Under the pieces are notes generated by a model. That model saw only the letters and a list, made by a program, of their open reading frames with translations, did not search any database and was not told the DNA's origin. Shown in pieces: positions 402-63,187 of a stretch of 64,000 bases of DNA. Made by a program: the position numbers and the translations under genes. The first letter of the stretch is position 1; each line of letters begins with the position of its first letter. Source of the stretch: Escherichia coli (GTDB lineage: Bacteria; Pseudomonadota; Gammaproteobacteria; Enterobacterales; Enterobacteriaceae); the NCBI RefSeq assembly GCF_003018235.1, contig NZ_CP027437.1; one strand, 5' to 3'.

Positions 402-864
402 CCACGGATAAAGAGAACTAAATTTCGTCAGAATTAACAGGAAATAACTGGAACGAAAAATACACCGCTTACGCGGCGGGGTTTCTGCAACCTTAAAACA
501 GGGTAAGAGAAATGGCAGAGATGATGAACAATAAACTCTTCATAACCAGTCTCTTTAAGTTGACTGGCCGGGAGTAACGACCAGTGGCAATACAAAAAAA
601 CCGCTTGCCAGCGTTTGTCTGGTCGGGTTACATTTCCCGTGCACCTCATAAAACGGGTGCCGGGATTCTCAACCCGCAGAAGAACAGAGCGCATAACCGC
701 GCCAGCGGTTTTTTTATGCGTGCCGTATCGTCACACCTTTTTCGCACACGAATTATGGCGGGGCGTACGGGGCCGACTTCGGTCGGGCCGGATCCTCTGT
801 TCTCCGGTGTTGAGAACCCCGTACGTCTCGCCACCCCGAGATTCTCAACTCTGGATGGTGAGTT

Positions 865-7457: not shown

Positions 7458-7534
7458 GCGCCGTTAGCTCAGCTGGACAGAGCAATTGCCTTCTAAGCAA
7501 TCGGTCACTGGTTCGAATCCAGTATGGCGCACCA
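7458..7534 (+). tRNA. tRNA-Arg (anticodon TCT, reads AGA)
   Basis: Cloverleaf folded by hand: 7-bp acceptor stem, perfect 5-bp anticodon stem ATTGC/GCAAT, loop CTTCTAA, T-loop TTCGAAT, encoded CCA. Confidence 0.85.
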
Positions 7535-7535
7535 T

Positions 7536-7610
7536 GCGGTCATCGTATAATGGCTATTACCTCGGCCTTCCAGGCTGATGATGCGGGTTCGATTCCAGCT
7601 GGCCGCTCCA
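7536..7610 (+). tRNA. tRNA-Gly (anticodon TCC), glyT-like with one T-stem mismatch
   Basis: 75 nt, near-identical to E. coli glyT recalled from memory; anticodon loop CTTCCAG; acceptor stem with one G-U; T-stem GCGGG/CCAGC has a G-A mismatch. Confidence 0.7.
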
Positions 7611-7768: not shown

Positions 7769-7939
7769 TATTTTTAGTATTTAGCCAGAGTGGCCCAAAC
7801 AGAAAATAAAGTTACTGTGAAACAGGGGGGCCTAATAAAAATAATCACCACTAAATTCGGGGCTTTAAAAATGCTAAGAACATCACATTTCATTATGCCG
7901 GGTACTGGAGAATAACATGATGTTTTGTTAAAAATGATT

Positions 7940-7979
7940 TTGCATGGTGAATCCCCCTGTGCGGCGGGGCATAATGACA
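7940..7979 (+). repeat. about 40-bp conserved motif, copy 2
   Basis: See copy 1; a partial inverted copy (GGTCATTGCAG...CACCATGCAG) lies at about 8021-8064. Confidence 0.5.
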
Positions 7980-8321
7980 GATGTTTGGTTGCGTATTGTA
8001 TAGGCAAGTTGCGGATTCTGTCTGGTCATTGCAGAATTCACCGGGAGGCACCCGGCACCATGCAGATAATTGTTTTGTGGATGATAATACCAGCCCCTCT
8101 CCGGAGGGGCTTTCTTATGGGCGAAAAAAAGCCCGGGGAGCCGGGCAATAGCATGAGATATACGTTTTTATAGACGTACAGATTTTAATCAGAATTTATG
8201 GGGCTGCGCAACTGCGTGGCCTTTTTTGTTTTGTGGGCTAAGGTTTTCCCCTTTGATTCGCCATGTGGCTGAACCTGTAGCCCGCCACTGTTCAGACGCA
8301 ATCCCGGCAAGGGGAGGAATA

Positions 8322-11321: not shown

Positions 11322-11953
11322 ATGAACCATGAAGAAATGAATCAGCGCTTCAGTCGCCTGGAAAATGAAATTGCCGGACTGAATAAAAAACTGTCGGCGC
11401 TGGTGACTTCTGAAGATGAAAAAAAAAACGCCGCGATGAACAGGAGGCGGCGTTTTATGATTATTGCATCAAAGTTGCCCGCAGGACCTTTGCGAATTTT
11501 TTGCAGGAAAAGCTATCACCGACCACATCGTCAGAAAAGTACTCCATTACGGTTGAAAGTGCCGGAGAGGAAGGCAATAAACGTTATTTTATTGCGTCTG
11601 CACCGGATAAAGACGAGGAACCCCGTCGGCCTTTCAGGGTTTCCTATGAAGAGGGGGAGTTCGTCGTTTATGAGAACGGAAAACCTGTCCGGGCATCGCA
11701 TCATCACTGCCTGAAAATTATTGATCTCGCTATTGGATGCCTGAAAGACGAAAACACCAGGGTTATGAAACGCATTGGCCGTTGCATGGGGTATCTGCAG
11801 GTGGCGGCAGAGATTGAAGCACTTGACAGTGGTGCTGACAGGGATACAGCGGTGCGGGAGTTCCTTCTTCGTGATTTCAATACCACGCCCTTTAAAAAAG
11901 TGCCTTATGACTGGATCCAGCCGGGCCTGACTTATCTCAAAGGGCGTATATGA
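11322..11953 (+). CDS. hypothetical gene between holin and endolysin, split into two frames at an A10 tract (11419-11428); fused product about 210 aa if -1 shift
   Basis: Frame 0 ORF 11322.. is protein-like for about 33 codons then junk-like; frame -1 is protein-like from the A-run to 11953 but has no ATG start; A10 tract followed by 7-bp-stem hairpin ACGCCGC...GCGGCGT. Confidence 0.35.
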
Positions 11954-16776: not shown

Positions 16777-18278
16777 TGGCGATTAGTGATGATGTGATTG
16801 GTTTTTTCTCGCCCGGCTGGAAAGCGGCGCGATTACGCTCAAGGGCGTTAATTATGGCCTATGAGGCCGTGAAACCCACCCGCACGCACAAAGCCCGGCG
16901 GGAAAACCGTTCTGCCGATCAGCTCAGTAAATACGGTGCGGTTTCCCTGCGCGAGCAGGCCCGCTTTCTGGATATCAATCATGACCTGGTGATAGGCGTG
17001 TTTGACAAGCTGGAGGAGCGGGTGATTGGCGCCAGGGGGATCACCGTTGAACCTCATCCGGTGCTGAAAAACGGGAAGATTGCGGCGGAGCTGGCAGCGG
17101 ATATCCGGCGGCTGTGGGCGGAATGGTCTGTCAGTCCGGATGTGACCGGACAGTACACCCGTCCCATGCTTGAACGTCTGCTGCTGCGCACCTGGCTGCG
17201 GGACGGGGAAGTGTTTGCGCAGATGGTCAGTGGTGCGGCAGGCGGTCTTAAGCGGTCTGCCGGTGTGCCTTTCTGGCTTGAGGCGATGGAGCCGGATTTT
17301 GTGCCCATGCGCAGTGATGAATCTGCCGGACTGAATCAGGGCGTTTTTCTGGATGAGTGGGGCAGGCCGAAAAAATATCTGGTTTACAAAAATTATCCGG
17401 TTTCCGGGATACAGAGTGATACCAAAGAGATCGCCGCAGACAATATGGTGCACCTGAAGTTCACCCGTCGCCTGCACCAGACGCGTGGCACATCCATGCT
17501 GTCAGGGGTGCTGATGCGGATCAGTGCGCTTAAGGAATATGAAGACGCCGAGCTGACTTCGGCACGTGTTGCGGCGGCGCTGGGGCTGTATATCCGTAAA
17601 GGGGACGGACAGGACTATGAAGATCCGGGGGTGAAAGACAACGAACGTGAAGTGCATATCACCCCGGGCATTATCTATGACGATTTGCGCAAGGGTGAGG
17701 ATATCGGCATGGTCAAATCAGACCGTCCGAATCCCAATCTTGAGAATTTTCGTAACGGCCAGCTGCGTGCGGTGGCGGCAGGCAGTCGTCTGAGCTTTTC
17801 CAGTGCGGCGCGCAACTACAACGGCACCTACAGTGCCCAGCGGCAGGAGCTGGTGGAGTCCACCGATGGTTATTTTATCCTTCAGGACTGCTTTATTGGC
17901 GCGGTAACCCGTCCGGTATACCGGGCATGGCTGAATATGGCGGTTGCGGCAGGTCTGCTGAAAATCCCGACTGGCCTGGATATGAAGACGTTATATAACG
18001 CGACGTATTCCGGTCCGGTGATGCCGTGGATTGACCCGGTTAAGGAAGCTGAAGCCTGGCGGATACAGATCAGGGGTGGTGCCGCGACGGAATCCGACTG
18101 GATCCGCGCAAGCGGGCGCAACCCGGATGAGGTCAAACGTCGCCGTAAGGCTGAAACTGATGAAAACCGCAGGCTGGGGCTGGTCTTTGATACTGACCCC
18201 GTCAACGACAAAGGAGGCAACAGTGCCGGAACTGAACAACAGCGTCAGCAGGCCACCGACAGCCAGCATGAAGAATAA
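16776..18278 (+). CDS. portal protein (lambda gpB-like)
   Basis: 500-aa ORF directly after W with ATGA overlap; lambda-like head gene order. Confidence 0.8.
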   Translation: MAISDDVIGFFSPGWKAARLRSRALIMAYEAVKPTRTHKARRENRSADQLSKYGAVSLREQARFLDINHDLVIGVFDKLEERVIGARGITVEPHPVLKNGKIAAELAADIRRLWAEWSVSPDVTGQYTRPMLERLLLRTWLRDGEVFAQMVSGAAGGLKRSAGVPFWLEAMEPDFVPMRSDESAGLNQGVFLDEWGRPKKYLVYKNYPVSGIQSDTKEIAADNMVHLKFTRRLHQTRGTSMLSGVLMRISALKEYEDAELTSARVAAALGLYIRKGDGQDYEDPGVKDNEREVHITPGIIYDDLRKGEDIGMVKSDRPNPNLENFRNGQLRAVAAGSRLSFSSAARNYNGTYSAQRQELVESTDGYFILQDCFIGAVTRPVYRAWLNMAVAAGLLKIPTGLDMKTLYNATYSGPVMPWIDPVKEAEAWRIQIRGGAATESDWIRASGRNPDEVKRRRKAETDENRRLGLVFDTDPVNDKGGNSAGTEQQRQQATDSQHEE

Positions 18279-20238
18279 ATCCTGGTTCAGGATGCAGGCG
18301 GGTGGTCAGGGTGAGGCGGATATTTATATTTATGACGAGATTGGTTTCTGGGGGGTTACGGCGAAGCAGTTTATCAGTGATCTGAATGCGCTTGGCGACA
18401 TCACCCACATTAATCTCCATATCAATTCACCGGGTGGCGAGGTCTTTGAAGGCATCGCCATTTTTAATACCCTCAGAAATCACGGTGCAGGCATTACCGT
18501 GTATGTGGACGGGGTTGCCGCGTCGATGGCATCCCTGATTGCGATGGCCGGTGACACGGTCATTATGCCGGAAAATGCCTTCATGATGATCCATAAGCCC
18601 TGGGGGATCAGCGGTGGTGACGCGGAGAAAATGCGCACTTATGCCGATCGCCTCGACAAACTTGAGTCGGTTATGGTGCCGGTATATGCGCAGAAAACCG
18701 GGAAAACCACCGATGAAATTGCTGCCATGCTGGCGGATGAGACCTGGATGTCCGGTGCGGAATGTCTGGCACACGGATTTGCAGACCAGGTGACGCCAGC
18801 CGTTAAGGCAATGGCATGTATTCAGTCAAAACGTACAGAGGAATTTAAAAAGATGCCGGAATCCATCAGAAATATGATCACACAACCGTCTGACCGTACC
18901 CCGCGTGAGGCGACCACCACACAGGCAGTCACAGAACCCGCCCCGGCACCGGCAGCGCCAGATGAGGAGACCATCCGGGCCAGTGTACTGGCGGAGCAGA
19001 AGGCCCGTATGTCAGGCATTAACGATCTGTTTGCCATGTTTGGTGGTCGTTATCAGGCACTTCATGCGCAGTGTGTGGCCGATCCCGGCTGCTCGCTGGA
19101 GATGGCCCGAGAGCGTCTGCTGAATGAAATGGGTAAGGAGTCCTCGCCGACTAACAAAACCACACCGGCACATATTTATGCCGGAAACGGTAATTTTGTG
19201 GGTGACGGGATCCGTCAGGCGCTGATGGCCCGCGCCGGATTTGAGACTACGGAGAAGGATAATGCCTATAACGGGATGACCCTGCGTGAATGCGCCCGCA
19301 TGTCACTGACGGAGCGGGGGATCGGGGTGGCCAGTTACAACCCCATGCAGATGGTGGGGCTGGCGCTGACGCACAGCACCTCGGATTTTGGCAATATCCT
19401 GCTGGATGTGTCGAATAAGGGACTGATTCAGGGCTGGGAGGAATCAGAGGAAACCTTCCAGAAATGGACCCGCAAAGGTCGCCTGTCTGACTTCAAAACG
19501 GCATACCGTGTGGGGATGGGGGGCTTTGGTTCACTGCGTCAGGTGCGCGAAGGGGCAGAGTACAAGTACATCACCACCTCAGACCGCAGGGAAACCATCG
19601 CGCTGGCGACCTACGGGGAAATTTTCTCCATCACCCGTCAGGCCATTATCAATGATGACCTGAATATGCTGGTGGATGTCCCGATGAAGATGGGGCGTGC
19701 CGCGAAGGCAACGATTGGTGACCTGGTGTATGACGTGCTGACAAAAAATCCGAAACTGTCAGACGGCAAGGCGCTGTTCCATGCCGATCACCAGAATATT
19801 GCCACCGGCGGGATCTCCGTTTCCGGTCTGGATGCGGCACGTCAGATGATGCGTCTGCAGAAGGAGGGGAATCGTGCACTGAATATCCGTCCGGCCTTCA
19901 TGCTGGTACCGGTGGCGCTGGAGACGGTGGCAAACCAGACCATCAAATCGGCCAGTGTGAAAGGGGCGGATGCGAATGCCGGTGTCATTAACCCGATTCA
20001 GAACTTTGCCGAAGTGATTGCGGAAGCGCGTCTTGATGCGGCAGATCCGAAAACCTGGTATCTGGCGGCGGCACAGGGGACCGATACGATAGAAGTGGCC
20101 TGGCTGGATGGTGTGGACACGCCGTATATTGATCAGCAGGAAGGCTTCACCACTGACGGTATCGCCACAAAAATCCGTATTGATGCCGGTGTGGCACCGC
20201 TTGACTGGCGCGGACTGGTACGATCATCTGCTGCCTGA
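18268..20238 (+). CDS. prohead protease (ClpP/S14 family) fused to major capsid protein
   Basis: N-terminal ClpP-like region INSPGGEVFEGIAIFNTLRNH...ASMASLIAMAGD; about 450 aa C-terminal extension in capsid position. Confidence 0.7.
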   Translation: MKNKSWFRMQAGGQGEADIYIYDEIGFWGVTAKQFISDLNALGDITHINLHINSPGGEVFEGIAIFNTLRNHGAGITVYVDGVAASMASLIAMAGDTVIMPENAFMMIHKPWGISGGDAEKMRTYADRLDKLESVMVPVYAQKTGKTTDEIAAMLADETWMSGAECLAHGFADQVTPAVKAMACIQSKRTEEFKKMPESIRNMITQPSDRTPREATTTQAVTEPAPAPAAPDEETIRASVLAEQKARMSGINDLFAMFGGRYQALHAQCVADPGCSLEMARERLLNEMGKESSPTNKTTPAHIYAGNGNFVGDGIRQALMARAGFETTEKDNAYNGMTLRECARMSLTERGIGVASYNPMQMVGLALTHSTSDFGNILLDVSNKGLIQGWEESEETFQKWTRKGRLSDFKTAYRVGMGGFGSLRQVREGAEYKYITTSDRRETIALATYGEIFSITRQAIINDDLNMLVDVPMKMGRAAKATIGDLVYDVLTKNPKLSDGKALFHADHQNIATGGISVSGLDAARQMMRLQKEGNRALNIRPAFMLVPVALETVANQTIKSASVKGADANAGVINPIQNFAEVIAEARLDAADPKTWYLAAAQGTDTIEVAWLDGVDTPYIDQQEGFTTDGIATKIRIDAGVAPLDWRGLVRSSAA

Positions 20239-20928: not shown

Positions 20929-21552
20929 ATGGCGATAAAAGGTCTGGCGCAGGCCATGAAAAATCTGGATGCCATTGATCGCCGTGCCGTTCCCCGTGCT
21001 GCTGCCACGACGCTTAACCGTGTGGCGGCGTCCGTTATTGCGAAAACAGCCTCTTCGGTTGCCCGGGAGCTGGCGGTCCCACGACGTCTTATCCGTGAGC
21101 GTATCCGCCTGCAACAGGCCAGCGCAGACAGGGTTTATGCGAAGGTCATCATCAACACCGGTAATCTGCCCGCCATAAAACTGGGGACGGCCAGCGTGCG
21201 GCTTTCCCGCAGAAAGCGGCGAAAGAAAGGCGAGCGATCGGTCACGAAAGGCGGTGGCAGCGTGCTGATTGTCGGGAAACGGCGGATCCCGAATGCCTTT
21301 ATTACCCGGCTGGAAAATGGCCGGTGGCATGTGATGCAGCGTATGCCGTGGGCGTCGTCGTCAACCGGTGTTGACCGTAAGGGCAGGCCTGCGCGTTATC
21401 GTCTGCCGATTGATGTGGTGAAAATCCCGACGGTAAAACCGCTGACAGAAACCTTTGAGCGTGAACGTGAGCGAATGTACCGGGAGAAATTACCGGAACA
21501 GATGATGAAAGCCATGACGCAGCAGTTGCGTCTGGTCATGAAACGAAAATGA
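20929..21552 (+). CDS. tail completion protein (gpZ-like)
   Basis: Position and size; AGGAG RBS. Confidence 0.5.
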   Translation: MAIKGLAQAMKNLDAIDRRAVPRAAATTLNRVAASVIAKTASSVARELAVPRRLIRERIRLQQASADRVYAKVIINTGNLPAIKLGTASVRLSRRKRRKKGERSVTKGGGSVLIVGKRRIPNAFITRLENGRWHVMQRMPWASSSTGVDRKGRPARYRLPIDVVKIPTVKPLTETFERERERMYREKLPEQMMKAMTQQLRLVMKRK

Positions 21553-21563
21553 CAGGGGGTGGC

Positions 21564-21962
21564 ATGAAACACCGTGAGATACGGGCGGCAATACTGTCTG
21601 CCCTGAAGGCAAATATTGCTGAGCGGGTGACCTGGTTTGACGGGCGACCTGTTTTTATTGACGAGCAGGAGCTTCCGGCAGTGGCGGTCTACCTGACTGA
21701 CGCGTCAGCGGCTGACGAGTTTGTGGATGAGGATACCTGGGAGGCGGTACTGCATGTCGAAGTGTTTCTCAGGGCAAAAGAGACGGACTCCGTACTGGAT
21801 ACATGGATGGAAGAAAAAATTTTTCCGGCGCTGGAAGGCGTTCCCGGTCTCAGTGCACTGCTGCTGAAAATGAATCTTCAGGGGTACGACTACAGCCGTG
21901 ATGATGAATTCATGATGTGGGGATCGGCAGATCTCCGGTGGAACATTACCTACGAAATGTGA
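21564..21962 (+). CDS. minor tail protein (gpU-like, tail terminator)
   Basis: Position immediately before major tail gene; 132 aa; AGGGGG RBS. Confidence 0.55.
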
Positions 21963-21969
21963 GGACGAT

Positions 21970-22728
21970 ATGTCAACACCTAATCCTCTTGAGCCGGTAA
22001 AAGGCTCCGGCACCACACTCTGGCTTTATTCCGGAAATGGTGATGCTTATGCAAATCCACTGTCTGATGATGACTGGACGCGACTGGCAAAAATCAAGGA
22101 ACTGACGCCGGGCGATATGACGGCAGAATCCTATGACGATAACTACCTGGATGATGAGGATGCCGACTGGGTTTCCACCGGGCAGGGACAGAAATCGGCG
22201 GGTGATACCAGTTTCACCCTGGCCTGGAAGCCCGGTGAGGCAGGCCAGCAGGCGCTGTTGCGGTGGTTTGATGAGGGCGATACCCGTGCCTATAAAATCC
22301 GTTTTCCCAATGGCACGGTCGATGTGTTCCGTGGCTGGGTGAGCAGTATTGGCAAGGCCGTCACCGCAAAAGAAGTGATCACCCGTACGATAAAAGTCAC
22401 CAATATTGGTCGTCCGTCGCTGGCGGAAGACAGCGGAACCATCACGCCGGTGACGGGGATCACCGTCACACCGGCCACGGCTTCTGTTGAGGCGGGGAAA
22501 ACGGTGGAACTGACGGTGGCCGTTCAGCCGGATACGGCATCGGACAAAACCTTCCGGGTGTCATCTGACCACAACAATGTGGCGACGGTGACCGTGAAGG
22601 ATAACGTCATCACGGTGAAAGGGGTGGCAAAAGGTACCGCGCTTATCCCGGTCATGAGTAATGGTGGCGCTTTCGCTGCCGTGGCCACCGTAACGGTCAC
22701 AACACCTGCAGCACAGCCTGCCACTTAA
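21970..22728 (+). CDS. major tail protein (gpV-like) with C-terminal Ig-like domain
   Basis: 252 aa, lambda V-like; C-terminal Big_2-like segment. Confidence 0.75.
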
Positions 22729-22746
22729 TTTTCCGGGAGTGAATTC

Positions 22747-23163
22747 ATGTTTCTGAAAACGGAACCGTTTGAATATAACGGGCAGACTGTCACGCTCAGC
22801 GAACTGTCCGCCCTGCAGCGCCTCGAGTATCTGGCCTGGGTGAAGGAGAAGGAAGAACAGCGGGGGGAGGGTGTCAGTGAACAGCAGGCGCTCACTGACA
22901 TCATCAGCGAAGGTGCCCTGCTGGTGGCCATGTCGCTCTGGCATCACCATGAGCTGAACGGAGCGTCATCCTCACTGCGTGAAGAGACGGACAGGCTCAT
23001 GCAGGAAGTCCTGACCTCCTGGCCGGTGGAAGCCATCGCCGCAGGCCGGAACGTGGTGGCACGTCTGAGTGGTATGTCGGCTCCGGCAGGTGAAAAATCC
23101 CCCGCTCAGGGGGGTAAAACAGACGAACCGGTAACGGCAAAAAAGCGTACGAAGGGGAGCTGA
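22747..23163 (+). CDS. tail assembly chaperone G
   Basis: 138 aa, lambda G position; ends ...VTAKKRTKGS. Confidence 0.7.
   Translation: MFLKTEPFEYNGQTVTLSELSALQRLEYLAWVKEKEEQRGEGVSEQQALTDIISEGALLVAMSLWHHHELNGASSSLREETDRLMQEVLTSWPVEAIAAGRNVVARLSGMSAPAGEKSPAQGGKTDEPVTAKKRTKGS
23139..23145 (+). other. programmed -1 ribosomal frameshift slippery heptamer A_AAA_AAG giving the G-T fusion
   Basis: Heptamer in G frame 7 codons before stop; -1 frame stays open to 23471. Confidence 0.6.
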
Positions 23164-23460
23164 TTTTTGCCCTGCAACTGGCGCGCGAGATGGGCCGTCC
23201 TGACTGGCGTGCCATGCTGGCCGGGATGTCATCAACCGAGTATTCCGACTGGCGTCATTTTTACCGCACGCATTATTTTCAGGATGCACAACTGGATATG
23301 CATTTTGCCGGGCTGACGTATGCCGTACTCAGCCTGTTTTTTGCCGATCCTGATATGAGTCCGTCTGATTTCAGCCTGCTGAACCGGCGTGGTGCTGAAG
23401 AAGAGCCTGAAGATGATGTGCTGATGTCGGTATCAGAAGGTATAGCAGGAGGTGTCCGCT

Positions 23461-26058
23461 ATGGCGGGTAACTTTGCAGATCTGACAGCAATTCTGACCC
23501 TGGATTCCACCCGCTTTTCTGAAGAAATGGGGCGGGTGAAAAAAGAGCTTGGCGAAACCAGCTCACTGGCAGACACGATGTCAGGCAAGGTCAGCCAGTC
23601 CCTGAATAAATCCGCAGAGGCCATTGAGCAGAGTCTGAGCCGTCAGGCGCTGGCCGCACAGAAAGCGGGGATTTCCGTCGGGCAGTATAAAGCCGCCATG
23701 CGTATGCTGCCTGCACAGTTCACGGATGTCGCCACGCAGCTTGCAGGCGGGCAAAGTCCGTGGCTGATCATGCTGCAACAGGGGGGCCAGGTGAAGGACT
23801 CCTTTGGCGGGATAATCCCTATGTTCAGGAGCCTTGCCGGTGCTGTCACCCTGCCGATGGCCGGGCTCACCTCGCTGGCGGTGGCGACAGGTGCGCTGGT
23901 GTATGCCTGGTACAAGGGTGATACCGTCCTGTCTGAATTTAATAAAACGCTGGTTCTTTCCGGTAATCAGTCGGGACTGACGGCAGATCGTATGTTGTCC
24001 CTGACCAGAGCCGGGCAGGCGGCAGGGCTGACGTTTAACCAGACCAGTGAGGCACTGACGGCGCTGGTGAATGCCGGTGTGCGTGGTGGTGAGCAGTTTG
24101 AAGCCATCAGCCAGAGTGTGGCACGTTTCTCCGCCGCATCGGGTGTGGAGGTGGACAAGGTTGCTGAAGCCTTCGGGAAGCTGACCACCGACCCGACGTC
24201 GGGGCTGACGGCGATGGCGCACCAGTTCCATAACGTGACGGCGGAGCAGATTGCGTATGTTGCTCAGTTGCAGCGTTCCGGCGATGAAGCCGGGGCATTG
24301 CAGGCGGCGAACGAGGCCGCAACGAAAGGGTTTGATGACCAGACCCGCCGCCTGAAAGAAAACATGGGGACACTGGAGACCTGGGCAGACAGGACAGCAC
24401 GGGCATTCAAATCCATGTGGGATGCGGTGCTGGATATTGGTCGTCCTGATACCGCGCAGGAGATGCTGATTAAGGCAGAGGCCGCGTTTAAGAAAGCGGA
24501 CGATATCTGGAATCTGCGCAAGGATGATTATTTTGTTAACGATGAAGCGCGGGCGCGTTACTGGGATGATCGTGAAAAGGCCCGTCTTGCGCTTGAAGCC
24601 GCCAGAAAGAAGGCAGAACAGCAGAGTCAACAGGACAAAAATGCGCAGCAGCAGAGCGATACCGAAGCGTCACGGCTGAAATATACCGAAGAGGCGCAGA
24701 AGGCTTACGAACGGCTGCAGACGCCGCTGGAAAAATACACCGCCCGTCAGGAGGAGCTGAATAAAGCCCTGAAGGCCGGGAAAATCCTGCAGGCGGACTA
24801 CAACACGCTGATGGCGGCGGCGAAAAAGGACTATGAGTCGACGCTGAAAAAGCCGAAACAGTCAGGCGTGAAAGTGTCAGCAGGCGATCGTCAGGAGGAC
24901 AACACCCGTACAGCGCTGCTGGCGCTGCAGACTGAGCTGCGGACACTTCAGGCCCACGCCGGGGCGAATGAAAAAATCAGCCAGCAGCGTCGGGAACTGT
25001 GGAAGGCGGAAAGTCAGTATGCGGTACTGGCGGAGGCGGCACAACGTCGCCAGTTATCCGCACAGGAGAAATCCCTGCTGGCGCATAAAGACGAGACGCT
25101 GGAGTACAGACGCCAGCTGGCTGACCTGGGCGACAAGGTTGAATACCAGAAACGGCTGAACGAGCTGGCAGACCAGGCGGAGAAATTTGCACAGCAGCAG
25201 CGGGCAAAACAGGCTGCCATCAGTGCAAAAGGCAGGGGGCTGACTGACAGGCAGGCGCAGCGGGAGTCAGAAGAGCAGCGGTTGCGCGAGGTGTATGGTG
25301 ATAATCCGCAGGCGCTGGTGAAGGCAACAGGTGCGCTGAAACAGACATGGGCTTCGGAAGACCAGCTGAATGGCAGCTGGATGGCCGGGCTTCAGTCGGG
25401 CTGGAGCCAGTGGGCTGAGAGTGCGATGGACAGTTTTTCGCAGGTGAAAAGTGTGTCCATGCAGACCTTTGACGGGATTGCGCAGAATATGGCAGCAATG
25501 CTGACCGGCAGTGAACAGAACTGGCGCAGCTTCACCCGTTCGGTGTTGTCGATGCTGACAGAAATTCTGCTGAAGCAGGCCATGGCCGGAATGGTCGGAA
25601 GTGCGATCAGTGCCATTGGCAGCGCTTTCGGCGGTGGTGCGTCGGCTTCAGCCGGTACGGCCATTCAGGCTGCGGCGGCGAACTTCCATTTTGCGACCGG
25701 AGGATTTACGGGCACGGGTGGCAAATATGAGCCTGCGGGGATTGTTCACCGCGGGGAGTTTGTCTTCACGAAGGAGGCAACCAGCCGGATTGGTGTCGGT
25801 AACCTGTACCGCCTGATGCGGGGCTATGCGGAAGGTGGTTATGTGGGCGGTGCCGGAAGTCCGGCGCAGATGCGGCGGGCGGAAGGTATCCGGTTTGAGC
25901 AGAACAACAGCGTGGTGATTCAGAACGACGGTACCAACGGGCAGGCGGGACCGCAACTGATGAAGGCGGTGTATGACATGGCCCGCAAAGGGGCGCAGGA
26001 TGAGATTCAGGCGCAGATGCGTGATGGCGGCGTATTTTCCGGAGGAGGTGGACGATGA
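23461..26058 (+). CDS. tail tape measure protein (lambda gpH-like)
   Basis: Near-colinear match to lambda H recalled from memory; AGGAGG RBS. Confidence 0.9.
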   Translation: MAGNFADLTAILTLDSTRFSEEMGRVKKELGETSSLADTMSGKVSQSLNKSAEAIEQSLSRQALAAQKAGISVGQYKAAMRMLPAQFTDVATQLAGGQSPWLIMLQQGGQVKDSFGGIIPMFRSLAGAVTLPMAGLTSLAVATGALVYAWYKGDTVLSEFNKTLVLSGNQSGLTADRMLSLTRAGQAAGLTFNQTSEALTALVNAGVRGGEQFEAISQSVARFSAASGVEVDKVAEAFGKLTTDPTSGLTAMAHQFHNVTAEQIAYVAQLQRSGDEAGALQAANEAATKGFDDQTRRLKENMGTLETWADRTARAFKSMWDAVLDIGRPDTAQEMLIKAEAAFKKADDIWNLRKDDYFVNDEARARYWDDREKARLALEAARKKAEQQSQQDKNAQQQSDTEASRLKYTEEAQKAYERLQTPLEKYTARQEELNKALKAGKILQADYNTLMAAAKKDYESTLKKPKQSGVKVSAGDRQEDNTRTALLALQTELRTLQAHAGANEKISQQRRELWKAESQYAVLAEAAQRRQLSAQEKSLLAHKDETLEYRRQLADLGDKVEYQKRLNELADQAEKFAQQQRAKQAAISAKGRGLTDRQAQRESEEQRLREVYGDNPQALVKATGALKQTWASEDQLNGSWMAGLQSGWSQWAESAMDSFSQVKSVSMQTFDGIAQNMAAMLTGSEQNWRSFTRSVLSMLTEILLKQAMAGMVGSAISAIGSAFGGGASASAGTAIQAAAANFHFATGGFTGTGGKYEPAGIVHRGEFVFTKEATSRIGVGNLYRLMRGYAEGGYVGGAGSPAQMRRAEGIRFEQNNSVVIQNDGTNGQAGPQLMKAVYDMARKGAQDEIQAQMRDGGVFSGGGGR

Positions 26059-26384
26059 AAACCTTCCGCTGGAAAGTGAAGCCGGATATGGAGGTCAGTT
26101 CGCAGCCATCGGTACGGGAGGTGCGCTTTGGTGATGGTTATTCCCAGCGTGCGCCTGCCGGGCTGAATGCCGACCTGAAAACGTACAGCGTGACGCTTTC
26201 TGTCTCCCGGGAGGAGGCCCGGTATCTGGAAGCATTCCTGGCAGAGCACGGAGGCTGGAAGGCGTTTCTGTGGACGCCGCCTTATGGTTACAGGCAGATA
26301 AAGGTGACCTGCGCCAGGTGGTCATCCCGGGTGGGAATGCTGCGAGTGGAATTCAGCGCGGAGTTTAAACAGGTGGTGAACTGA
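26055..26384 (+). CDS. minor tail protein M
   Basis: 109 aa as in lambda M; GGAGGAGG RBS; ATGA overlap with H. Confidence 0.8.
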   Translation: MKTFRWKVKPDMEVSSQPSVREVRFGDGYSQRAPAGLNADLKTYSVTLSVSREEARYLEAFLAEHGGWKAFLWTPPYGYRQIKVTCARWSSRVGMLRVEFSAEFKQVVN

Positions 26385-28373: not shown

Positions 28374-28618
28374 GAATAAAAAAATACCCACAGTGTTGGC
28401 CAGGCTGTGGGGAATACGATGAAAAACCATGTGAAGGAGTTATTTTTATGTACGGTGAAACTGTAACGCTGTGCAATTATCAGCGCCACAGGTATTTTGC
28501 AGAAATGTGAAGAAATTCAGAATTTTTATTCAGTCAGTCAACAGACAGGCACCCCACGGGGTGCCTGTTGTTTTTGGGTATAAACAGATTCAGGCATCAG
28601 GCTGGACAGGGGGACAGA

Positions 28619-63105: not shown

Positions 63106-63187
63106 CCCTTTGCTTGCTCAAATTGCAGCTAATGGAGTGGCGTTTCGATAGCGCGTGGAAATTTGGTTTGGGGAGACTTTACCTCGG

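What the first reader, a model, noticed from the sequence alone, without database searches (positions are those of the whole stretch)
23139..23145. Conserved G-T programmed -1 frameshift site A_AAA_AAG
The slippery heptamer lies near the end of the G chaperone gene and the -1 frame continues into the T region, as in lambda. This is the same class of signal as the suspected recoding site in the holin-endolysin insert, which makes that one more plausible.
Basis: established knowledge. Interest (0 to 1): 0.3.

Follow-up and report, generated by a model that had tools for sequence, protein, structure and literature searches.

The report
Lambda-type G-T tail chaperone frameshift site
This is the well-known ribosome "slip" signal that lambda-like phages use to make a small amount of a longer tail-assembly helper protein (G-T) alongside the short one (G); it is real, sits exactly where lambda's does, and is an ordinary, already described variant.

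Summary
The heptamer AAAAAAG is at window 23139-23145. It lies in the correct register (A_AAA_AAG) of a 138-aa gpG homologue (22747-23163), 5 codons before its stop. The -1 frame is open from 23118 to 23471 and encodes a gpT homologue, so a slip would give a 241-aa G-T fusion. The gene order Z-U-V-G-T-H-M-L-K-I matches lambda.

The site is positionally homologous to the G_GGA_AAG site of lambda-type phage HK630. Of 86 related sequences, 74 carry G_GGA_AAG, 10 carry A_AAA_AAG and 2 (phi80, mEp213) carry G_GAA_AAG, all 5 codons before the G stop. Codon-position variability switches from the G frame to the T frame at the heptamer. No start codon precedes the conserved T-frame peptide.

Published assays give the two main heptamers equal efficiency in E. 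coli. A prophage "tail assembly chaperone" A_AAA_AAG cluster is already listed (Sharma et al. 2014). The bare motif is common in the window (24 copies), so the evidence is context and homology, not the motif.

Production of the fusion in this prophage is inferred, not shown. Verdict: confirmed, already known, low interest.

The parts
22747..23163 (+). Gene G: tail assembly chaperone gpG homologue, 138 aa, the zero-frame product
   Evidence: ORF. Pfam PF06894 Phage_TAC_2, E 1.3e-36, residues 1-114. About 63% identity of the G-T fusion to the G-T of lambda-type HK630. GGGAG Shine-Dalgarno-like sequence at 22734-22738, upstream of the ATG.
23139..23145 (+). Slippery heptamer A_AAA_AAG, the proposed -1 shift site with tRNA-Lys in both the P and A sites
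   Evidence: Sequence and register. Positional homology to G_GGA_AAG of lambda-type HK630. 86 relatives carry a slippery or near-slippery sequence at the same place.
23118..23163 (+). G/T overlap window: the stretch in which both the G frame and the -1 (T) frame are open, so any shift must occur here
   Evidence: The T frame is closed by TAA at 23115-23117 and the G stop is at 23161-23163. In some relatives the upstream T-frame stop lies only 9 nt before the heptamer (stop codon at indices 18-20, heptamer from index 30), which narrows the window further.
23145..23471 (+). T-frame segment of the G-T fusion, 108 codons; the fusion is 22747..23145 joined to 23145..23471, 241 aa
   Evidence: Translation. 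Pfam PF06223 Phage_tail_T, E 6.2e-15. The T-frame peptide AYEGELIFALQLARE upstream of the first ATG (23190) is conserved, and no ATG/GTG/TTG precedes it in that frame.
23419..23426 (+). Retained copy of the 8-bp direct repeat TGCTGATG, marking a 111-nt in-frame deletion in T (37 aa, one of two C-terminal repeats lost)
   Evidence: Pairwise alignment with the 97%-identical E. coli SCU-111 locus L085, which has the full-length T. Protein alignment.
21970..22728 (+). Context: major tail tube protein gpV homologue with a C-terminal Big_2 domain
   Evidence: Pfam Phage_TTP_12, E 2.3e-68, and Big_2, E 4e-16.
23461..26058 (+). Context: tape measure protein gpH homologue. Its ATG overlaps the end of T, and its GGAGG ribosome-binding sequence lies inside the last T codons
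   Evidence: Pfam TMP_2, E 4.4e-69, and Tape_meas_lam_C, E 3.1e-19. The start follows the PGAP annotation of the identical stretch. Sequence.

Best explanation
This is the programmed -1 ribosomal frameshift site of the G/G-T tail assembly chaperone pair of a lambda-like prophage in E. coli.

Most ribosomes translate G to its stop at 23161-23163 and release the 138-aa chaperone. A small fraction, probably a few percent by analogy with lambda, slip back one base. This happens when tRNA-Lys occupies the P site (AAA) and the A site (AAG) on A_AAA_AAG, and both tRNAs re-pair with AAA AAA. Translation then continues in the -1 frame from GCG (23145-23147) to 23471 and gives a 241-aa G-T fusion.

By analogy with lambda, the G part binds the tape measure protein and the T part recruits the major tail protein. 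A high G:G-T ratio is needed for correct tail assembly, and neither protein ends up in the virion.

Shown here: the sequence, register, open frames, protein homology, positional homology to the site of lambda-type HK630, and evolutionary constraint. Inferred: that the slip occurs in this prophage, its efficiency, and the function of the fusion.
For: (1) Register and frames.

(2) Protein identities and lambda gene order Z-U-V-G-T-H-M.

(3) Codon-for-codon correspondence. Lambda-type HK630 reads GCG GGA AAG TGT TCG ACG GTG AGC TGA and the window reads GCA AAA AAG CGT ACG AAG GGG AGC TGA.

(4) Of 86 related sequences, 74 have G_GGA_AAG, 10 have A_AAA_AAG and 2 have G_GAA_AAG. All are 5 codons before the G stop, while the flanking codons vary.

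(5) Across 38 distinct sequences, pairwise variability by codon position follows the G frame upstream of the heptamer (0.32/0.24/0.50). It follows the T frame in the 18-nt overlap after it (0.03/0.15/0.27), where the G-frame third position is the least variable.

(6) The T-frame peptide between the heptamer and the first ATG is conserved (G137 E138 L139 F141 A142 L143 L145 A146 R147 E148 invariant). In the window no ATG/GTG/TTG precedes it in that frame. In phi80 and mEp213 that Met is Phe.

(7) Literature. Lambda G-T is a -1 shift with a G:GT ratio of about 30:1; the G part binds gpH and the T part binds gpV (PMC5009743). The lambda site is GGGAAAG and the zero frame is kept about 96% of the time (PMC3296357). 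AAAAAAG and GGGAAAG have equal measured efficiency in E. coli: 0.291 vs 0.277% without a stimulator, 4.26 vs 3.80% with the IS911 stimulator, and 39.0 vs 43.0% with the IS3 stimulator. A prophage cluster 'A_AAA_AAG_25, ECs1801, tail assembly chaperone; [true]' is listed (PMC4066793 supplement).

(8) No promoter-like site and no + strand terminator-like site lies between V and H, so G and T share one transcript.
Against: There is no direct evidence of the fusion protein for this prophage.

The T part carries a 111-nt deletion relative to its 97% relative. PGAP marks T as an incomplete pseudogene in the record that is identical over this stretch. The fusion may therefore be impaired, or the prophage defective.

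The motif itself is common in the window: 24 copies against about 12 expected.

No stimulatory element was found. The downstream 100 nt fold no better than shuffles (z = -0.75). The one conserved hairpin starts 34 nt after the heptamer and shows almost no covariation. In Sharma's reporter context the unstimulated efficiency is only about 0.3%. The few-percent figure therefore rests on the lambda analogy.
Confidence: 0.93

Rival explanations
1. Relic site. The heptamer and the open -1 frame are inherited from a functional ancestor, but this prophage is defective. G-T is then either not made in useful form or no longer matters. The signal would be real in kind but not currently functional.
For: T has lost 37 aa through a 111-nt deletion between 8-bp repeats. 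PGAP flags T, and also J, as incomplete in the closely related record. The ORF between holin and lysozyme is broken by an A-run expansion, which suggests some decay. No integrase is visible inside the window.
Against: The deletion is exactly in frame. The Pfam Phage_tail_T match remains essentially full length (profile positions 1-72 of 73). The H ribosome-binding sequence and start are preserved. A T with only one C-terminal repeat also occurs in a deposited Stx2a-converting phage genome (L086, G-T 252 aa). All tail genes Z to J are open ORFs in the window. The PGAP 'pseudogene' flag on T is what an annotation pipeline gives when it does not model the slippage.
Confidence: 0.1
2. T is made on its own from the internal ATG at 23190, as the separate 'T' CDS in database records implies. 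On this view the heptamer is incidental.
For: An ATG exists at 23190, and annotators start T there or nearby.
Against: The 15 T-frame codons upstream of that ATG are conserved as protein and evolve with T-frame periodicity right from the heptamer. The Met is replaced by Phe in phi80 and mEp213. No Shine-Dalgarno-like sequence sits at a proper distance before 23190. For lambda the literature describes T sequence only as part of the G-T fusion (PMC5009743).
Confidence: 0.03
3. The frame change is made by RNA polymerase slippage on the A6 run, adding one A to the mRNA, rather than by the ribosome.
For: One extra A in the run would put T in frame (direct reading of the sequence). Long A-runs are known slippage sites; this rests on general knowledge and was not tested here.
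Against: Six A's is shorter than the runs of about 9 or more usually needed in E. coli (from memory, not tested). 74 of 86 relatives have GGGAAAG, with only three A's, at the same position. Polymerase slippage therefore cannot be the conserved mechanism.
Confidence: 0.03
4. Chance: a heptamer that happens to fall near the end of G.
For: The motif is common (24 in the window). About 0.07 in-register heptamers are expected in a 15-codon overlap.
Against: The position is identical to that of lambda-type HK630. It is conserved in 86 sequences with varying flanks. The codon periodicity switches at the site.
Confidence: 0.005

Closest known systems
Bacteriophage lambda G / G-T programmed -1 frameshift (Levin, Hendrix & Casjens 1993; Xu, Hendrix & Duda 2004, 2013, 2014; as cited in PMC5009743)
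   Same: Homologous G and T proteins and the same gene order between V and H. The slip site is in the same codon register, 5 codons before the G stop. The same A-site codon AAG is read by tRNA-Lys. No convincing stimulatory structure is present. The conserved T-frame peptide ...GEL.FAL.LAREMGRPDW starts right after the site.
   Different: The P-site codon is AAA (Lys) instead of GGA (Gly), so the heptamer is A_AAA_AAG rather than G_GGA_AAG and the junction reads A-K-K|A-Y instead of A-G-K|V-F. T is 37-38 aa shorter because one of two C-terminal repeats is missing.
Prophage tail-assembly-chaperone cluster A_AAA_AAG_25 (ECs1801, E. coli O157 Sakai) in Sharma et al. 2014, Table S4 (PMC4066793)
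   Same: The same heptamer in a prophage 'tail assembly chaperone' gene of E. coli, scored by those authors as a true frameshift case. A Stx2a-converting phage examined here (L086) carries A_AAA_AAG at the homologous position.
   Different: I did not retrieve ECs1801 itself, so its sequence relationship to the window's G is inferred from the Stx-phage relatives and not measured.
phi80 / mEp213 / N15-type G-T site
   Same: Homologous G, T and overlap. The site is at the same distance from the G stop, and the A_AAG core is kept.
   Different: The heptamer there is the non-canonical G_GAA_AAG, where the P-site tRNA-Glu would re-pair with GGA through a G-U-type mismatch. It is one substitution from G_GGA_AAG and two from A_AAA_AAG.
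dnaX and IS911/IS3-family A_AAA_AAG frameshift sites of E. coli
   Same: Identical heptamer, and the same tRNA-Lys double slip (PMC4066793).
   Different: Those sites have an upstream Shine-Dalgarno-like sequence and/or a downstream stem-loop or pseudoknot that raise efficiency to tens of percent. No such elements are evident here, in keeping with a low-level shift.

Membership tests
Lambda-type G/G-T tail assembly chaperone -1 programmed ribosomal frameshift | Two overlapping ORFs located between the major tail protein gene and the tape measure gene | tested here: met
   V 21970-22728, G 22747-23163, T frame 23118-23471, H 23461-26058.
Lambda-type G/G-T tail assembly chaperone -1 programmed ribosomal frameshift | The upstream ORF is a gpG-family chaperone | tested here: met
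   Pfam PF06894 Phage_TAC_2, E 1.3e-36, 125.6 bits against a cut-off of 27.
Lambda-type G/G-T tail assembly chaperone -1 programmed ribosomal frameshift | The downstream ORF is in the -1 frame relative to G and is a gpT homologue | tested here: met
   Frame arithmetic. Pfam PF06223 Phage_tail_T, E 6.2e-15, 55.8 bits against a cut-off of 25.9.
Lambda-type G/G-T tail assembly chaperone -1 programmed ribosomal frameshift | An X_XXY_YYZ slippery heptamer in zero-frame register inside the overlap | tested here: met
   A_AAA_AAG at 23139-23145. It is the only fully usable in-register heptamer: a second one (GGGGGGT, 23109) lies at the upstream edge and runs straight into the TAA at 23115, leaving 0 codons in the -1 frame.
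Lambda-type G/G-T tail assembly chaperone -1 programmed ribosomal frameshift | The site is positionally homologous to the experimentally mapped lambda site | tested here: met
   Same codon position and both 5 codons before the stop, compared with lambda-type HK630. The site is given as GGGAAAG for lambda in PMC3296357.
Lambda-type G/G-T tail assembly chaperone -1 programmed ribosomal frameshift | Evolutionary conservation of slipperiness, and of T-frame coding from the site onward without its own start codon | tested here: met
   86 relatives and 38 distinct contexts. Codon periodicity switches at the heptamer. No T-frame start lies upstream of 23190 in the window. Met is replaced by Phe in phi80 and mEp213.
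Lambda-type G/G-T tail assembly chaperone -1 programmed ribosomal frameshift | A G-T fusion protein is produced at a low percentage of G | not testable with these tools
   Needs a western blot, mass spectrometry or a reporter assay. Published reporter values exist for the bare heptamer only.
Lambda-type G/G-T tail assembly chaperone -1 programmed ribosomal frameshift | Both G and G-T are required, in a high G:G-T ratio, for tail assembly | not testable with these tools
   Known for lambda (PMC5009743, PMC3296357). Not testable for this prophage.
Stimulated A_AAA_AAG frameshift sites (dnaX / IS3 family type) | An upstream Shine-Dalgarno-like sequence about 10 nt before the heptamer, and/or a stable stem-loop or pseudoknot 5-9 nt after it | tested here: not met
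   No SD-like sequence lies 10-14 nt upstream; the GGGGGG run is 24-29 nt upstream. The downstream fold has z = -0.75. The conserved hairpin starts 34 nt downstream with essentially no covariation. A weak 6-bp outer helix starting 8 nt downstream has one compensatory pair only.

The most novel reading that the evidence does not exclude
In the A_AAA_AAG form both slipping tRNAs are tRNA-Lys(mnm5s2UUU), whereas in lambda's G_GGA_AAG only the A-site tRNA is. The G:G-T ratio of this lineage (this prophage and the Stx-phage relative examined here, L086) could therefore depend more steeply on the host's U34 thiolation state (the Tus/MnmA/IscS network of Maynard et al. 2012) than lambda's does. That would make tail assembly in these prophages a sharper read-out of host sulfur and tRNA-modification status. 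The recurrent GGG/AAA alternation, with G_GAA_AAG as a possible intermediate form in phi80-type phages, would then reflect tuning rather than neutral drift.
Probability: 0.12. Interest if true: 0.3.

Novelty: already known. Interest (0 to 1): 0.08.

Why it matters
The value is mainly for annotation. The stretch identical to the window in RefSeq NZ_CP076709.1 has T labelled as an incomplete pseudogene. Related records list G and T as two separate genes without ribosomal slippage. The correct product is a joined CDS, 22747..23145 plus 23145..23471. Recognising this avoids miscounting a pseudogene and helps in judging whether the prophage's tail module is intact. The finding adds no new biology. 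The mechanism, its conservation in long-tailed phages and this heptamer variant are all published.

Tried and rejected
(1) I mapped the whole window onto NZ_CP076709.1 by a fixed coordinate offset. This failed. Many CDSs of that record are not exact substrings of the window, and offsets of -73/0/+4 appear. The window therefore comes from a close relative and not from that record. The background statistics were restricted to the 17 genes that match exactly (2974 codons).

(2) The search for related loci with the single G-T protein returned only 8 loci. An alignment query was needed to obtain 80.

(3) I looked for a downstream stimulatory RNA. The single-sequence fold is not better than shuffles. 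The alignment fold finds a GC-rich hairpin, but it is too far downstream (34 nt), invariant, and confounded by strong protein conservation. I rejected it as evidence of a stimulator.

(4) I looked for an upstream Shine-Dalgarno-like stimulator at dnaX-like spacing and found none.

(5) The Rfam scan found no family at the site. I know of no Rfam family for G-T, so this is uninformative.

(6) I considered that the T deletion or the PGAP pseudogene flag means the site is dead. I judged this unlikely but not excluded (rival 1).

(7) I considered transcriptional slippage and independent initiation of T. The comparative data reject both.

(8) Two of my scripts first failed through my own errors: a regex spacing error, and a regex that missed the GGGAAAG loci. 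Both were corrected. Locus files hold several records each, which caused an early file-not-found error.

Full report
**The observation.** Window 23139-23145 is AAAAAAG. The surrounding ORF, 22747-23163 on the + strand, encodes 138 aa. Base 23139 is a third codon position in it. The zero frame therefore reads GCA AAA AAG CGT ACG AAG GGG AGC TGA, which is the heptamer in the A_AAA_AAG register required for a tandem -1 slip, 5 sense codons before the stop. The -1 frame is closed by TAA at 23115-23117 and then stays open to the stop at 23469-23471. A slip at the heptamer followed by reading from GCG (23145) gives a 241-aa fusion.

**Chance.** The bare motif is not informative. It occurs 24 times in the window, where dinucleotide shuffles give 11.6 ± 3.1. 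In 2974 codons of window genes that I could place exactly, in-register X_XXY_YYZ heptamers occur 14 times, or 0.0047 per codon. About 0.07 would therefore be expected in the 15-codon G/T overlap. Of those 14, only this site (108 codons in the -1 frame against 5 left in the zero frame) and the trivial rseD/rpoE gene overlap lead into a -1 frame that outruns the zero-frame stop. The case rests on context and comparison.

**What surrounds it.** Pfam assigns the neighbouring ORFs as follows.

| Gene | Coordinates | Pfam family | E-value |
|---|---|---|---|
| gpZ | 20929-21552 | Minor_tail_Z | 4.8e-57 |
| gpU | 21549-21962 | Phage_tail_U | 1.2e-51 |
| gpV | 21970-22728 | Phage_TTP_12, plus Big_2 | 2.3e-68 |
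| gpG | 22747-23163 | Phage_TAC_2 | 1.3e-36 |
| gpT | -1 frame, 23145-23471 | Phage_tail_T | 6.2e-15 |
| gpH | to 26058 | TMP_2 plus Tape_meas_lam_C | 4.4e-69 |
| gpM | 26055-26384 | Phage_min_tail | 1.2e-38 |

This is the lambda tail gene order. The window holds a lambdoid prophage at roughly 1-36000, followed by E. coli chromosomal genes: raiA, bamD, clpB, an rrn operon, and on to rpoE. The 801 nt around the site are 100% identical to E. coli O158:H23 NZ_CP076709.1. The window as a whole is not that record. No promoter-like site and no + strand terminator-like site lies between V and H.

**Comparison with lambda-type phage.** In lambda-type phage HK630 the end of G reads GCG GGA AAG TGT TCG ACG GVG-equivalent GTG AGC TGA, that is GCG GGA AAG TGT TCG ACG GTG AGC TGA. 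The G_GGA_AAG site is in the same register and at the same distance from the stop as the window's A_AAA_AAG. GGGAAAG is the lambda slippery sequence given in PMC3296357. The fusion proteins align end to end at 63% identity. The T-frame peptide immediately after the site is strongly conserved (G137 E138 L139 F141 A142 L143 L145-R151... invariant).

**Comparative survey.** I collected 80 IMG/VR loci using a G-T alignment as query. To these I added HK630, E. coli SCU-111, a Stx2a-converting phage, mEp213 and phi80.

- All 86 sequences have a slippery or near-slippery sequence exactly 5 codons before the G stop.
- 74 carry G_GGA_AAG, 10 carry A_AAA_AAG, and 2 (phi80, mEp213) carry G_GAA_AAG.
- The flanking codons vary: GTT TCT, GTA ACG, ATC ACG, TAT TCC, CTT ACT or ACA TCA upstream, and TGT, TCT, CGT, CAT, CCT, TAT or CCC downstream.
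- Across 38 distinct 115-nt contexts, mean pairwise variability by codon position follows the G frame upstream of the heptamer (0.32/0.24/0.50 for positions 1/2/3).
- In the 18-nt overlap after the heptamer it follows the T frame (0.03/0.15/0.27). In G-frame terms the third position there is the least variable (0.03).

Selection therefore reads the T frame from the heptamer onward. In the window there is no ATG, GTG or TTG in the T frame between the upstream stop and the ATG at 23190. In phi80 and mEp213 that Met is Phe. The conserved peptide can therefore only be reached from G by a frame change at or next to the heptamer.

**Mechanism.** By homology and established knowledge, this is a tandem -1 slip of the P- and A-site tRNAs. 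Here both are tRNA-Lys (AAA, AAG -> AAA, AAA). Sharma et al. 2014 measured all 64 heptamers in E. coli (PMC4066793 Table S3).

| Heptamer | No stimulator | IS911 stimulator | IS3 pseudoknot |
|---|---|---|---|
| AAAAAAG | 0.291% | 4.26% | 39.0% |
| GGGAAAG | 0.277% | 3.80% | 43.0% |

The two forms are functionally interchangeable and belong to the best class in E. coli. I found no stimulator. The 100 nt downstream fold no better than shuffles (z = -0.75). The only conserved hairpin starts 34 nt after the heptamer, is invariant rather than covarying, and lies in the LAREMGRPDWRAM coding stretch. No Shine-Dalgarno-like sequence lies at dnaX-like spacing upstream. This fits a low-level shift as in lambda, where the zero frame is kept about 96% of the time and the G:G-T ratio is about 30:1. 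It also fits the reported loss of phage yield when frameshifting rises (PMC3296357, PMC5009743). In lambda the G part binds the tape measure and the T part binds the major tail protein. I infer the same roles here.

**Rivals.**

- Independent initiation of T at 23190 is contradicted by the conserved upstream T-frame peptide, by the Met-to-Phe change in relatives, and by the lack of a ribosome-binding sequence.
- Transcriptional slippage on A6 cannot be the conserved mechanism, because most relatives have only AAA at the site.
- Chance is excluded by the comparative data.
- The one rival I cannot exclude is that the site is a relic in a decaying prophage. T has lost 111 nt (37 aa) between two copies of TGCTGATG relative to its 97%-identical relative, which keeps the same heptamer. 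PGAP calls T, and also J, incomplete in the related record.
- Against the relic reading: the deletion is in frame, the Pfam T domain is retained, the H start and its ribosome-binding sequence are preserved, and the deletion merges two C-terminal repeats into one. A one-repeat T also occurs in a deposited Stx2a phage genome. The tail genes are open ORFs.

**Known or new.** The lambda G-T frameshift has been known since Levin et al. 1993. Its conservation across long-tailed phages was shown by Xu et al. 2004 (both cited in PMC5009743). The A_AAA_AAG spelling in E. coli prophage tail assembly chaperone genes is listed as a true case in Sharma et al. 2014, Table S4 (cluster A_AAA_AAG_25, ECs1801, 53 genes). 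The finding is therefore already known. Its practical value is annotation, because database records for this and related loci do not join G and T.

The ORF between the holin and the lysozyme (start 11322) changes frame at an A10 run (11419-11428). Two close relatives have A8 and one continuous ~208-aa ORF. That is a 2-nt homopolymer expansion: a mutation, an assembly error, or at most a site for polymerase slippage. It is not a conserved heptamer signal. The G-T site says nothing about its plausibility.

**Verdict.** The finding is already known and of low interest.

Noticed in passing
window 23419-23426 (T gene): T carries a clean 111-nt in-frame deletion relative to the 97%-identical E. coli SCU-111 locus. 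It lies between two copies of the 8-bp direct repeat TGCTGATG and fuses the two C-terminal 'DDV(M)LM..GxAGGVR(Y/F)G' repeats into one, so G-T is 241 aa rather than about 278. A one-repeat T also occurs in a Stx2a-converting phage (L086).
   Followed up: partly
L087 (mEp213) 1165-1207 and L088 (phi80) 1123-1207: At the position homologous to the slip site these phages have the non-canonical G_GAA_AAG (GCG GAA AAG), also 5 codons before the G stop. It is one substitution from G_GGA_AAG and two from A_AAA_AAG, and it keeps the A_AAG core. It could be an evolutionary intermediate between the two canonical forms.
   Followed up: partly
window 11322-11953, A-run at 11419-11428: The ORF between the class II holin and the lysozyme is split by an A10 run. 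Two relatives in NZ_CP076709.1 (L089 and the copy in L083) have A8 and a single uninterrupted ~208-aa ORF, although PGAP still labels those copies 'frameshifted'. The window's state looks like a 2-nt homopolymer expansion, not a conserved recoding signal.
   Followed up: partly
NZ_CP076709.1 locus L001 3491-3769 (= window 23190-23468) and other records: Database annotation does not model the slippage. PGAP calls T an 'incomplete' pseudogene in the identical stretch. Other records list G and T as separate CDSs that start at an internal ATG.
   Followed up: yes
window 28374-28618: A non-coding gap of about 245 nt lies between the end of gene I (28373) and the GTG start of J (28619, ...[21 protein letters not shown]). 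In lambda J follows I almost directly (from memory). PGAP flags J as incomplete at its C-terminus in the related record, although the window ORF runs to 31915.
   Followed up: no
window 641-838, 7458-7607, 7912-8122: Rfam hits in the prophage early and late-regulatory regions: isrK (641-715) and C4 antisense RNA (751-838), two tRNAs (7458-7531, 7536-7607; Arg and Gly in the related record), and STnc100 (7912-8122). A large DUF6645 ORF follows, upstream of the lysis genes. From memory, this is the position occupied by stx and nanS-p in Stx phages.
   Followed up: no
window 63167-63173: An in-register TTTGGGG lies in the rseD leader-peptide gene, and the -1 frame there is rpoE itself. This simply reflects the known rseD/rpoE overlap and not a recoding candidate.
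   Followed up: no
window 18031-20238: The head module encodes a ClpP-like prohead protease fused to the major capsid protein in a single ORF (annotated as such in the related record). Together with the 'replication endonuclease' and ogr/Delta-like genes elsewhere in the prophage, this shows the element is a mosaic and not a lambda clone.
   Followed up: no
window 23179-23214: A GC-rich hairpin (CTGGCGCGCGAG...CTGGCGTGCCA) is predicted in all relatives, 34 nt downstream of the heptamer. It is invariant, with only G-C/G-U one-sided changes, and it overlaps the most conserved T peptide. Structure and protein constraint therefore cannot be separated.
   Followed up: partly
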